A DNA stretch of 63,372 nucleotides, counting the filler, from Globobulimina sp. (lineage: Eukaryota): the NCBI GenBank assembly GCA_003354225.1. It is 33 parts of 33 records of this genome, joined end to end, with 100 filler letters (N's around TTAATTAATTAA, not from the genome) between each part and the next. Parts side by side here need not be neighbours in the genome. Positions count along the whole stretch, not along the records: positions 55,785 to 57,606 come from PIVH01011532.1; 32 more parts are not named here. One strand, given 5' to 3'. Of the stretch, positions 1,826 to 57,606 are shown piece after piece. The position numbers and the translations under genes were made by a program. A model generated the notes under the pieces. It had not been told where the DNA came from and did not search any database. It saw only the letters and a list, made by a program, of their open reading frames with translations. How positions within the stretch are numbered: position 1 is the stretch's first letter; each line of letters opens with the position of its first letter.

Positions 1826-1925
1826 NNNNNNNNNNNNNNNNNNNNNNNNNNNNNNNNNNNNNNNNNNNNTTAATTAATTAANNNNNNNNNNNNNNNNNNN
1901 NNNNNNNNNNNNNNNNNNNNNNNNN
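1826..1925. other. Artificial contig linker N44-TTAATTAATTAA-N44 (first of 32, recurring about every 1.92 kb; last at 61451-61550)
   Basis: Identical 100-nt block each time; the 12-mer gives stops in all six frames; flanking contigs are 1825, 1824, 1823 then 1822 bp (length-sorted). Confidence 0.99.
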
Positions 1926-2785
1926 AATTCGATATCTTCGGCGAGTCTCTTTGCTCCCTCTGCGGTGCTACGACCAGGTGCCTCTTCTCCATCCTCTTCT
2001 TCATCCTCTTCTCCATCCGCTTCTCCCTCAGCGATTCGTTGAACTAAACAGATACAAATCATAAATACAATCACAAATACCAAATAGAGGGAAAACATAC
2101 CTGCTTTTTTGACCGTACGCGGTGGAGATAGTAAGTTAAGCCTTCTTTTTTTTGGTGGTGGCGGTGGCGGTGAACTGAGATTTGAATTCGTATTTGGTGG
2201 CGATCTCCATCTGTTGTTATACGTGGTCGTAGTGGTGCCATCACCACCCGTTGGTACGCTTCGTTTGCATCTACCCGGTGGTGAACCAGGTGCTTGTTTG
2301 CGTGGTCCTGGCGGTGAACCGTTATTTAATTTGTTATTATTATTATTGCCATTTGATGATTGTGCGAGACTTGTATTCGTATTTGGTGGCGATCTGTTGC
2401 TGCTCGTATTTGGTGGCGATCTGTTGCTGCCATCACCACCTGTTGGTGCTCTTCGTCTGCCTCTACCCGGTGGTGGGCCTGCTTGTTTGCGTGTGCGTGG
2501 TCGTGGTGGTGAACAGTTATTTTGTTTGTTATTATTATTATTATTATTATTTGTTGATTGTGCGAATTGACCAGTTGTATTATGTCGGGATCTAACTGGA
2601 TGTAGGCGTGATTGCGATCGATGTATATAATGTTTTGATGATCGATGGCTACCATGAAACTCTTGTTGCGATCGATGTCTTGATGATCGTCGGTGTCTTG
2701 ATCGATTGCCACCACTTCGACCACTTCCATGTCGATTGTTGAAAATTGATTCAGATTGATGCGTACGGTAATACCGATCCGACAT
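1926..2785 (-). CDS. Low-complexity R/H/S/N/P-rich hypothetical protein with internal duplication; probable in-frame intron 2044-2100; 3' partial
   Basis: Long ORF; duplicated NNxSPPxP..KQAxGxPPGR..PTGGDG..RSPPNT unit; PPKKRR NLS-like motif; GTATGT...TTTAG 57-nt intron. Confidence 0.6.
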
Positions 2786-3050
2786 TATTTGTTAGCTCGG
2801 TTTTTTGAGAAACACGAAAAGTTTTAATTTTAATTCAGTGGACTAAGATTCAAGCATTCAGAAAAACAAGAGATTCAGTGAACCGGTTCAAGAGATTCAG
2901 TGTGCATCTCGCAATGCGTCTGCTGATGATCCTATTGGCGATGATGAAACGGATCTTGGTTTGTATATTGCTGAACAAAACTAGTCATCGCATATTAAAT
3001 AAAAAACGTTAAATAAAAAAAAACATTACCGAGTGCAAATAATTAAAAAT

Positions 3051-3750
3051 TCACAATTCACATTTACCAAATAAAGCGTCATGTTTTGATTCAATATCAT
3101 GTGCAGTTCTTTTAATAATTTTTCTTTGTTTTTTCATTTTTTTAATATCATCTTTTATCATAGTTTTAATTGTTTGCATATAATCAGCAACAAATTGGAT
3201 ATCGTCATTATTCATAATTAATTCTCCCAAATGTATCGTCATAACATTTCGAGAATCACAATCTTTTAAAGTTGAAATAAATTTGTACGTCAATCTCCCC
3301 TGCAACTTAATTTGATATTTTATAACTTGTTTTACTTGTTGTTGTTTTGCTCCATGCGATCTTTTAATTGCAACGTTTGTTTTAACTCTGTTGTAAAATT
3401 TCATTTTATGTTGTTTTATATATGCTTCCACTGTAAAATCTTCACCTTTAATTGGCATTAATTCTAATATGTGGGGTTTGACAAAATTATTGGTGTTGGT
3501 AGTTAATCGATTTTGGTATTGTGGCACAGATTTTGGTGATGGTGGCACATATATTGGTGTTGGTGGTGCTGGTGGTGTTGGTGGCACATATATTGGTGTT
3601 GGTGGTGTTGGTGGCACATATATTGGTGTTTGTGGTGTTGGTGGCGGTGGCGGTGGTGGAGGTGGTGGCGTTGGTGCTTTGACGTAGTTACGGATTAAAT
3701 TTGATTTACTAATAAGCTTAGTAGTGAAGGTAGGAGACTCTGACATATTG
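3051..3750 (-). CDS. Proline-rich hypothetical protein (PTPIYVPP repeats) with a basic C-terminal region
   Basis: 231-aa ORF with polyproline and three PIYVPP repeats; no family recognised. Confidence 0.55.
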
Positions 3751-55684: not shown

Positions 55685-55784
55685 NNNNNNNNNNNNNNNN
55701 NNNNNNNNNNNNNNNNNNNNNNNNNNNNTTAATTAATTAANNNNNNNNNNNNNNNNNNNNNNNNNNNNNNNNNNNNNNNNNNNN

Positions 55785-55985
55785 TTGAAACTGAAACTAT
55801 AAAATCAGTTGCAAACTAAATATTTGCGCCTTACGCAAAGCCGCGCGCTCCGCGCGCAACGCGGCGGGGCCGCGTTCCTTTGGGTCAGTTTAAAAGATTT
55901 TGTTTAAACTGATTTTATGGTTTCAGTTTCAAACTATGTCTTTCTCATAGTTTGAAACTATAATCTTTCCTCAGTTTCAAACTGA
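55785..55985. mobile_element. Fold-back element with GC-rich T-shaped core, copy 1 (truncated by the contig start)
   Basis: Arms 55785-55816 and 55902-55932 are inverted; core 55836-55882; GTTTGAAAC/GTTTCAAAC subrepeats are shared with copy 2. Confidence 0.65.
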
Positions 55986-56117
55986 TTTATTTTTCATCCA
56001 AATGTATGAAGCCATTCCAAATGCGCCCATTTCGCATCGCGTTGGCCATCTGGCGCTATGTAATAAATGTATTCTATCATACATCCTATCCTATCCTATC
56101 CTATCCTATCCTATACA

Positions 56118-57606
56118 GGTACACCCGCAACACATCGACATCGTCCACGCGCCCAACATCGATATGATAGCCATCGCAAAGCTGCCTTTCAGTTTGTTCC
56201 GCCAGACGCCCCGGACAGTGATATTGATGAAGAGAAACAGATAATATTGGGCGGCGACAGAAATGAAGAATTGGTGGCGTTTGTAAAGCAAAAGCATAAA
56301 ATGCAGTCGATTTTAGAAATGTGGTATGGATACAGAGTGATATTATTGAAGGCGAAGGGTGGCAAAGAGAAACTCCCGAATTATCGCATTCCGACTGAAA
56401 ATATTCAATTTATAGTTCATTGGTTGGTCTCCGCATCATTAGTATTTGAGCAGGCGAAAGAATATAATGTTTCGTTTCACCCGGATGGCCTCGCGAGCGC
56501 AGCCGTCCATCAAAGGATCGCGCAGGTATTTAATGTTGTGCGTGAGTCATTAGGGATTAGTGGCTATGATCCCATTAATAAGAGCATGTCGGAGCGACTG
56601 TTTAAGAAATTGTCGGCGGGCTGTGGGCACCAGGAGGATAAGACCCACCATGTAAACGTTTTGTTCAACAAATTGCAGATGGATGTAAATGGATTATTAT
56701 CATCAAACAAACAGTATCAAGATGATTTTACGCGGATCACCATGAATGCCGCATCCAAGAAAATCAATCAATTGCAAAGGAAAAATGAGAAAGTGTCGAA
56801 GATGGACGTAAATTTGGAGGCGACAGTGGCGACGTTGCGAGAGATGGTTGATTTGGAGACGAAGAAATTGATGAATGAAAATAAGAAAAAGGTTGAGGCA
56901 GAAAAGGAGAATATTCAGAAATTGGTTGGCCGCCGGAATGATAATGACATCGGTCAGTGGAGATTTTATGCAGTATTAAATATTATGAAATATTGCAGTG
57001 TTTGAAACTGCTTTCAAACAACGACATTTTTATGGTTTGAAACTGCAAAAATGAAGCAGTTCAAAATGCATTAAAGAGAATAATAGTTTCAGTCTCATTT
57101 TATTATAATAATGCAGTTTGAAACTGAAACTATACTCTCAGTGCACACAAAATGTATGAAAATACCACAAAGCGGCGCGCTGCGCGCGCCACGCCGCAAG
57201 CGGCGTCGCTTTGTGTTATATGCAAATATTTAGTTTGAAACTGAGATTATAGTTTCAGTTTCAAACTACATTATTATAATAAAATGAGACTGAATCTATT
57301 ATTCTCTTTAATGCATTTTGAACTGCCTCATTTTTGCAGTTTCAAACCATAAAAATGTCGTTGTTTGAAAGCAGTTTCAAACACTGCAATATTTCATAAT
57401 ATTTAATACTGCATAAAATGTGTGTTGTGCCATTATTTTTATTTTAGATTTGGGGATTGGATACACATTTGATCGCCAATTGGATGAATCAGTATTTTCG
57501 CATTCGTTGAGATATGTTGGTGACTCAGCAGCCTATGATTCGATTACATGGATTATTAATAATGGGGATAAGATGCGCGAACGTTGTACTTTGCAGCAAC
57601 GCGTTA
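56118..57606 (+). CDS. Hypothetical coiled-coil protein; intron 56953-57447 contains the fold-back element; the upstream intron contains (ATCCT)n
   Basis: G|GTCAGT donor and TTTTAG|AT acceptor join in phase 1 (NDNDI-DLGIGYTFDRQL). Confidence 0.6.
56963..57419. mobile_element. Fold-back element with 180-bp inverted arms and GC-rich T-shaped core, copy 2
   Basis: 56963-57142 versus 57240-57419 reverse complement with 4 mismatches; core 57166-57215. Confidence 0.75.

What the first reader, a model, noticed from the sequence alone, without database searches (positions are those of the whole stretch)
56963..57419. Intronic fold-back element with an AAV-ITR-like T-shaped GC core
Seen: 180-bp AT-rich inverted arms (4 mismatches, iterated GTTTGAAAC) around CACAAAGCG-[GCGCGC-tgc-GCGCGC]-c-[ACGCCGC-aa-GCGGCGT]-CGCTTTGTG, a stem ending in two short hairpins. 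It expands an intron to 495 nt against the usual 48-82 nt, and no target-site duplication is evident. Known: a long stem with iterated binding sites capped by a T/Y hairpin is the geometry of parvoviral ITRs used in rolling-hairpin replication. Inference: a possibly undescribed non-autonomous element mobilised by an HUH/Rep or telomere-resolvase-like enzyme, or a hairpin-end replication junction.
Basis: partly seen in the sequence, partly recalled or inferred. Interest (0 to 1): 0.8.

Follow-up and report, generated by a model that had tools for sequence, protein, structure and literature searches.

The report
Self-mirroring hairpin introns inside transposons
A real 457-base DNA fold-back with a Y-shaped GC tip fills an intron of a Harbinger-type cut-and-paste transposon in a protist; its two arms keep copying each other, and related fold-backs recur in other repeated genes of the same genome, but nothing ties it to virus-like hairpin replication.

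Summary
The structure is real: 180-nt arms with 4 mismatches, a 50-nt three-way GC core, fold z = -38. It is not a free element. It fills an inferred intron of the second gene (PHD finger) of a multicopy PIF/Harbinger transposon, which carries two sister fold-backs. All 9 of 9 core matches in the genome lie in that family. Outer arms are 96-98% alike within a copy but 75-87% between copies; the inner 22 nt stay asymmetric and side-specific. That pattern points to DNA-level arm-to-arm copying (template switching or hairpin repair). Other repeated, transposase-like genes hold their own fold-backs with the same 11-nt motif, one module being shared by two elements with unrelated proteins. In introns of ordinary genes the motif recurs at about 10.4-bp spacing. 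No shared ends, target duplication, AAV Rep site or linked HUH gene was found. Splicing, function and the route of spread are inferred, not shown. Verdict: new variant of a known kind; interest 0.5.

The parts
55785..56071 (.). Fold-back B: core and right arm of a sister fold-back in the upstream intron of the same gene; cut by the contig start
   Evidence: its left arm is on C22508, 95.6% over 180 nt to this right arm
55836..55882 (.). Y-shaped GC core of fold-back B
   Evidence: C11532:52-73; the C9437 copy folds as a three-way junction
56083..56118 (+). Five-base simple repeat and inferred acceptor AG of intron B
   Evidence: (family D7); acceptor inferred from frame
56119..56952 (+). Middle exon of the Harbinger second gene (ORF2; PHD finger in an upstream exon on other contigs; helical and coiled-coil region here)
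   Evidence: (12 matches on 10 contigs)
56953..57447 (+). Inferred 495-nt phase-1 GT-AG intron filled by fold-back A; 10 nt unpaired after the donor, 28 nt before the acceptor
   Evidence: uninterrupted relatives C2330 and P0008
56963..57142 (.). Left outer arm of fold-back A
57143..57165 (.). Left inner zone, imperfectly paired, conserved side-specifically between copies
57166..57215 (.). Y-shaped core: 9-bp stem, hairpin 1 (57175-57189), hairpin 2 (57191-57206)
   Evidence: held with 0 differences by one contig of run X1 spanning 57095-57268 (X1 may be the source sample)
57216..57239 (.). Right inner zone
57240..57419 (.). Right outer arm of fold-back A
57448..57606 (+). Last exon of ORF2 (cut by the contig end)
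57607..57706 (.). Artificial N-linker joining unrelated contigs (likewise 55685-55784)

Best explanation
[quoted passage not shown] A GC-rich hairpin core with about 50-60 nt of motif-bearing flank was copied into the non-coding gaps of the element (two introns, A and B, and the gap between the convergent genes, C) before the present copies diverged. The stable core lets single-stranded DNA fold back during replication or gap repair, so each arm is repeatedly corrected against the other (quasi-palindrome template switching or mismatch repair in a hairpin). This keeps the outer arms identical within a copy, leaves the zone next to the core asymmetric, sometimes inverts or deletes the core, and can extend the mirror into local sequence until it meets the splice signals. 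Folding back leaves about 40 unpaired nt, which probably keeps the long intron spliceable. Shown: location, family, concerted arms, sister modules. Inferred: splicing, the copying mechanism, spread between loci by repair-type copying, and any benefit.
For: Linked convergent DDE_Tnp_4 gene, E = 2.8e-18; 9 of 9 core matches in this family. Outer arms 124-127/129 within a copy, 97-112/129 between copies; inner zone 15-16/22 within, 18-22/22-23 same side between copies. 40 of 204 pairs changed on both sides among 3 copies, 3 on one side only through G-U, which fits DNA copying better than stepwise RNA compensation. A shares only about 150 nt with B (76%) and 51 nt with C (86%), yet each is a palindrome to its own ends. 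In 8 of 8 hand-called fold-back introns the mirror stops 10-81 nt short of filling the intron, and in C32225 it mirrors the putative donor site itself. Template switching gives arm homogenisation, spacer inversion and stem extension (PMC8604942, PMC8794818; passages read).
Against: Two arm mismatches are shared by C11532 and C2800 although about 17 other sites changed on both arms, so one long copying tract cannot explain it; patchy repair or selection is needed. Some modules are alike over most of their arms (D 88% over 192 nt between C11667 and C43977; E1 and E2 79% over 263 nt), which fits insertion of a whole unit as well as growth in place. No close copy with an empty A site was found among 6 matches to the last exon; the only uninterrupted relatives are about 38% identical, so gain or loss of the intron is not polarised. 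The core-flip signal between A and B is one-sided (left flank 39/52 against 31/53; right flank 40/53 against 38/52). Deletions also occur in copies without fold-backs, so instability is not specific.
Confidence: 0.58

Rival explanations
1. A non-autonomous mobile unit with its own mobiliser (Foldback/MITE-like or double-hairpin-element-like) that inserts into, or creates, introns of transposons; the iterated palindromic motif would be the binding site of a transposase supplied in trans.
For: Module D is shared by an element with a hAT-like motif and a second family with unrelated protein and lies in both orientations relative to the gene. Three copies of F in C2195, two of E in C179. The relative C2330 lacks both introns. 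Iterated binding sites in long arms are known from Galileo (PMC3688188, passages read).
Against: No shared terminal sequence among the 8 intron ends printed; no duplication at A's flanks; A/B/C cores never seen outside their family (9 of 9), F never outside C2195 (3 of 3).
Confidence: 0.2
2. The arms are kept by selection on RNA structure: the pre-mRNA hairpin is needed to bring the splice sites together or to feed small RNAs.
For: Fold-backs fill introns and spare the splice signals; two arm mismatches are conserved between copies.
Against: Fold-back C lies between two genes; almost no G-U intermediates (3 of 204 pairs); no Rfam family reaches its gathering score; D occurs in both orientations.
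Confidence: 0.1
3. One reading: an AAV-ITR-like origin or hairpin-end junction worked by an HUH/Rep or telomere resolvase.
For: T/Y geometry kept across different core sequences, several with three-base G-N-A loops on one strand; possible inverted isomers.
Against: Internal position; DDE transposase linked; ORF2 model is mostly helical with no structural match, though of low confidence; no GCTC/GAGC in the element; 4 of 4 A copies in one orientation; 0 matches in viral and metagenome contigs.
Confidence: 0.07
4. Amplification or assembly artefact (fold-back chimera).
For: Fragmented assembly; C7152 shows a mirror that includes exon sequence; only one run holds the stretch and it may be the source.
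Against: Three diverged copies each on one contig share the boundaries, core and inner asymmetry, and return to the next exon; arms differ at 2-5 of 129 sites within each copy.
Confidence: 0.05

Closest known systems
PIF/Harbinger DNA transposons (host element)
   Same: DDE_Tnp_4 transposase plus a second gene, multicopy; two-gene layout as described in PMC13668399 (passages read). Closest named relatives of both proteins are foraminiferan EukProt entries.
   Different: Second gene has a PHD-like finger (E = 2.8e-4, below Pfam cut-off) and no Myb/MADF match; three long internal fold-backs.
Quasi-palindromes kept by template switching (PMC8604942, PMC8794818; passages read)
   Same: Arm homogenisation, spacer inversion, stem extension.
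   Different: Those cases are short repeats or RNA stems; here 140-230-nt arms with a shared branched core recur inside transposon introns.
Double-hairpin elements of fungal mitochondria (PMC10085805, passages read)
   Same: Small GC-rich two-hairpin unit in AT-rich non-coding DNA, possibly mobile, no known enzyme.
   Different: Nuclear, inside long AT-rich mirrored arms, tied to transposon genes; no sequence comparison was made.
Foldback-type elements and Galileo (PMC3688188, passages read)
   Same: Long inverted arms with iterated short sites.
   Different: There the arms are the element's ends with fixed termini; here they are internal with no shared termini or target duplication.
Parvoviral (AAV) inverted terminal repeat (features recalled; one search gave a listing only)
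   Same: Stem capped by two short GC hairpins.
   Different: Internal, AT-rich stem, no Rep-binding tetramer repeat, no Rep gene linked.
PATCs of C. elegans (PMC4947018 listing only; bioRxiv 10.64898/2026.08.08.743475 abstract read)
   Same: Transposon-related repeats in introns with about 10-bp period; applies to the host-gene motif arrays.
   Different: Here a defined palindromic 11-13-mer; the fold-backs themselves are not in 10.4-bp phase; no function tested.

Membership tests
PIF/Harbinger transposon (host element) | DDE_Tnp_4 transposase | tested here: met
   E = 2.8e-18 (C2800) and 1.5e-18 (C2330); catalytic residues not checked one by one
PIF/Harbinger transposon (host element) | Second gene within the element | tested here: met
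   Convergent ORF2 on the same contig in C2800 and C2330
PIF/Harbinger transposon (host element) | Second protein is Myb/SANT/MADF-like | tested here: inconclusive
   No such Pfam match; weak PHD match; low-confidence model without fold match
PIF/Harbinger transposon (host element) | Short TIRs and 3-bp TWA target duplication | tested here: inconclusive
   Ends of this subfamily are not on the short contigs; a TTA followed by GGGC start was seen by eye in a related subfamily
MITE / Foldback element (the fold-back itself) | Conserved terminal sequence shared by copies at different loci | tested here: not met
   Ends differ among A, B, D, E
MITE / Foldback element (the fold-back itself) | Target-site duplication | tested here: not met
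   None in the aligned A flanks (by eye); an old duplication could have decayed
MITE / Foldback element (the fold-back itself) | Dispersed copies in unrelated flanks, empty sites | tested here: inconclusive
   A/B/C: 9 of 9 in one family; D: in at least two unrelated families; no empty site in close copies
AAV/parvoviral ITR | T-shaped GC hairpin | tested here: met
AAV/parvoviral ITR | Rep-binding tetramer repeats (recalled) | tested here: not met
   0 of 5 GCTC matches on the contig lie in the element
AAV/parvoviral ITR | Terminal position and linked Rep/HUH gene | tested here: not met
   Internal; linked genes are a DDE transposase and ORF2
AAV/parvoviral ITR | Flip and flop isomers among copies | tested here: inconclusive
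   4 of 4 A copies one way; partial flip A versus B; D2 locus differs between contigs, assembly ambiguity possible
HUH transposons (Helitron, Replitron) | HUH gene in element or genome; subterminal hairpin, fixed target; short direct terminal repeats for Replitrons (PMC10288648, passages read) | not tested
   No HUH gene in the element contigs, but no genome-wide search was run; ends undefined
Introner | Many near-identical introns at new positions in unrelated host genes | tested here: not met
   GC-core fold-backs were seen only in a few repeated, transposase-like families plus one unassigned gene; C2330 lacks both introns, direction unknown
Structured RNA family | Rfam match at gathering score | tested here: not met
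   0 of 5 weak matches reach it

The most novel reading that the evidence does not exclude
A small hairpin module that moves between unrelated DNA transposons, builds its own mirrored arms out of local sequence, thereby creates or widens spliceable introns, and seeds the palindromic motif that host genes then retune to the DNA helical repeat as a chromatin or anti-silencing signal: a self-made fold-back intron system in foraminiferan-type genomes.
Probability: 0.18. Interest if true: 0.8.

Novelty: new variant of a known kind. Interest (0 to 1): 0.5.

Why it matters
It is a clean natural record of arm-to-arm DNA copying with a sharp inner boundary, in a lineage whose genomes are barely described. 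It shows transposons of different kinds in one genome carrying the same architecture in their introns, and links it to a helically spaced intronic motif in ordinary genes. If the link holds, it offers a testable route from transposon repeats to intron gain and to host chromatin signals, parallel to the PATC story in nematodes. It does not show virus-like replication.

Tried and rejected
Sequencing runs: 3 listed, 1 holds the stretch, no RNA holder listed; laid as contigs only, X2 and X3 gave 0 pieces, which is no proof of absence. Rfam: nothing at gathering score. Core pattern in metagenome and viral contigs: 0 and 0. ORF2: no usable Atlas hit, model pLDDT 57.6, no fold match at E <= 0.001. 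Proteins of C2195, C794, C179, C11667-type contigs: no informative Pfam or PDB match, so 'hAT-like' and 'transposase-like' rest on motifs recalled and read by eye and on copy number. A link of the C32225 gene to those families was not found. Spacers between motifs in host introns are no more self-complementary than shuffled pairs, so a chain-of-hairpins reading of the arrays was dropped. A general triloop-hairpin pattern gave 22 matches, 3 of them fold-back A and none of the 19 others with the motif. I first took C3054:2351-2651 for a chimera; it is fold-back B without its core. Lengths of ordinary and motif-array introns were not measured. Earlier scan findings were not available.

Full report
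Observation. The 50-nt core at 57166-57215 folds as a three-way junction on either strand. Seven exact copies of GTTT(C/G)AAAC lie in it. The window is a string of 33 contigs joined by N-linkers; the finding sits on one 1,822-nt contig, G000:C11532, of a 70-Mb assembly in 48,370 pieces. The intron call rests on GT-AG ends that keep the frame and on two relatives that run through this point uninterrupted, C2330 and P0008. No RNA was available, and the 48-82 nt norm was not measured.

What it sits in. The interrupted gene has 12 matches on 10 contigs. On C2800 and C2330 it faces a convergent transposase with DDE_Tnp_4 at E = 2.8e-18 and 1.5e-18, which has 32 matches in the assembly. An upstream exon has a weak PHD match. 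This is the two-gene layout of PIF/Harbinger elements (PMC13668399, passages read), although no Myb/MADF domain was found and the ends are off the contigs. Five of the 6 homologues looked up by name, of both proteins, are foraminiferan EukProt entries, so the host is probably of that kind (inference). The element carries three fold-backs: A (the finding), B in the upstream intron (its core and right arm are at window 55785-56071) and C between the two genes. All 9 of 9 exact matches to the shared core pattern lie on contigs of this family, against 0 for the reversed control. The 39%-identical relative C2330 has neither intron nor fold-back.

How the arms evolve. Over the outer 129 nt, the two arms of one copy match at 124-127 sites (three single-contig copies and one presumed copy on two contigs); arms of different copies match at 97-112. 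In the 22 nt next to the core the pattern reverses: 15-16 of 22 within a copy, 18-22 of 22-23 on the same side between copies. Among three copies, 40 of 204 predicted pairs changed on both sides and 3 on one side only; related copies are not independent, but changes that pass through no G-U state fit copying of DNA from arm to arm. Template switching is reported to homogenise arms, invert spacers and extend stems (PMC8604942 and PMC8794818, passages read). Against a single long tract, two mismatches are shared by C11532 and C2800 while about 17 other sites changed on both arms. B's core has A's order (27/37 against 21/38) while its left flank mirrors A's right flank (39/52 against 31/53); the right flank is undecided (40/53 against 38/52). 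That is a partial sign of core inversion. All 4 of 4 A copies with a core have the same orientation. One C copy has lost the branch and become a plain hairpin.

The wider pattern. The 13-mer CAGTTT(C/G)AAACTG occurs 337 times, the reversed control twice. Other repeated genes hold fold-backs built on it with different GC cores: D in C11667, C5093, C43977 and C32225; E twice in C179; F three times in C2195, again Y-shaped. Their proteins have no Pfam or PDB match; I call them transposase-like from recalled motifs and copy number only. D is 88% identical over 192 nt between C11667 and C43977, whose proteins show no match to each other, so modules have passed between families. In 8 of 8 hand-called introns (309-495 nt) the mirror leaves 10-81 nt unpaired; their ends share no sequence; in C32225 the right arm mirrors the putative donor site. 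A shares about 150 nt with B and 51 nt with C, yet each is mirrored to its own ends. This favours arms grown or overwritten in place around a shared core, though the long D and E similarities also fit insertion of whole units.

Host introns. In 21 contigs with ordinary-looking genes (labels by eye; chosen from the first 100 rows, transposon-like contigs set aside), the motif forms arrays without GC cores. Adjacent spacings peak near 21, 31 and 42 nt; best period 10.3-10.4, mean cosine 0.59, 0 of 5,000 jittered sets as high (n = 60). In 17 further contigs the exact motif was not significant (752 of 5,000, n = 12) and the motif with one mismatch was (3 of 5,000, n = 22). The fold-backs themselves are not in that phase. 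Spacers are not more self-complementary than chance in host introns. Helical spacing points to a DNA-level role. It recalls PATCs, for which a preprint reports origin from transposon repeats retuned to the helical period (10.64898/2026.08.08.743475, abstract only); that parallel is a lead, not a test.

The AAV idea. The shape matches, and several cores carry three-base G-N-A loops (their stability in single-stranded DNA is recalled). But the structure is internal, the linked enzyme is a DDE transposase, ORF2 models as mostly helical with no fold match (low confidence), the AAV Rep tetramer is absent from the element (AAV features recalled), and the core pattern has no match in viral or metagenome contigs. 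The genome was not searched for HUH genes, so supply in trans is not excluded. An artefact is unlikely since diverged copies share boundaries and inner asymmetry, and a contig of run X1 holds 57095-57268 unchanged, but X1 may be the source sample and mirrored chimeras do occur in this assembly (C7152).

In print. Ten searches of the open-access library, read as listings, showed no description of such intronic fold-backs in transposons; subscription journals, repeat databases and supplements were not seen, so this is weak evidence of novelty. Nearest in form are double-hairpin elements of fungal mitochondria (PMC10085805, passages read) and Foldback-type arms (PMC3688188, passages read); introners (PMC12130899, passages read) and Replitrons (PMC10288648, passages read) fit less well.

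Verdict. Real; a passenger fold-back inside a Harbinger-type transposon, kept by arm-to-arm DNA copying (0.58); a dedicated mobile unit 0.2; RNA-level selection 0.1; rolling-hairpin or HUH 0.07; artefact 0.05. New variant of a known kind, interest 0.5.

Noticed in passing
G000 host-gene contigs, e.g. L079 (C3253) 2187-2310, L084 (C5283) 1100-1274, L077 (C2794) 2768-2867: Arrays of a palindromic 11-13-mer in introns of ordinary genes, spaced at about 10.3-10.4 bp multiples; 337 exact 13-mers in the assembly against 2 for the control.
   Followed up: partly
L132 (C2195) 1077-1315, 2448-2585, 3392-3723: Three copies of another Y-core fold-back (F) in a large unclassified transposase-like gene; its arms carry the same five-base simple repeat seen at the end of intron B.
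   Followed up: partly
L014 (C11667) 325-743; L150, L153, L083, L154: Single-hairpin module D shared by elements with unrelated proteins, in both orientations relative to the gene.
   Followed up: partly
L148 (C26261) 880-998 versus L149 (C38945) and L014 1699-1811: Same outer flank followed by opposite inner sequences: possible flip/flop isomers of D, or assembly ambiguity.
   Followed up: no
L071 (C179) 1013-1263 and 2999-3325: Two fold-backs (E) in opposite orientation in introns of a long gene with no family match.
   Followed up: partly
L020 (C6542) 690-1000 and L022 (C47412): Copies of ORF2 whose upstream intron lacks the motif and core but keeps sequence like B's outer right arm, with a different 51-nt hairpin in L020: an ancestral or collapsed form.
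   Followed up: no
L068 (C5300), L063 (C18266), L059 (C7498), L162 (C15774): A second Harbinger subfamily whose transposase and partner genes have motif-array introns without GC cores; element start after TTA seen by eye.
   Followed up: no
L029 (C2330) 1842-3647 and window 56119-56952: Harbinger partner protein with no family match and only 3 relatives among 1.8 billion representatives; PHD-like finger upstream in the window's subfamily.
   Followed up: partly
L093 (C7152) 1-391: Mirror that includes exon sequence: probable amplification chimera.
   Followed up: no
L081 (C4282): Intron-containing gene that looks like pyruvate:ferredoxin oxidoreductase (label by eye), suggesting an anaerobe-capable host.
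   Followed up: no
L098, L108, L109 and other loci: Contigs that look animal or bacterial, so the assembly is probably mixed.
   Followed up: no
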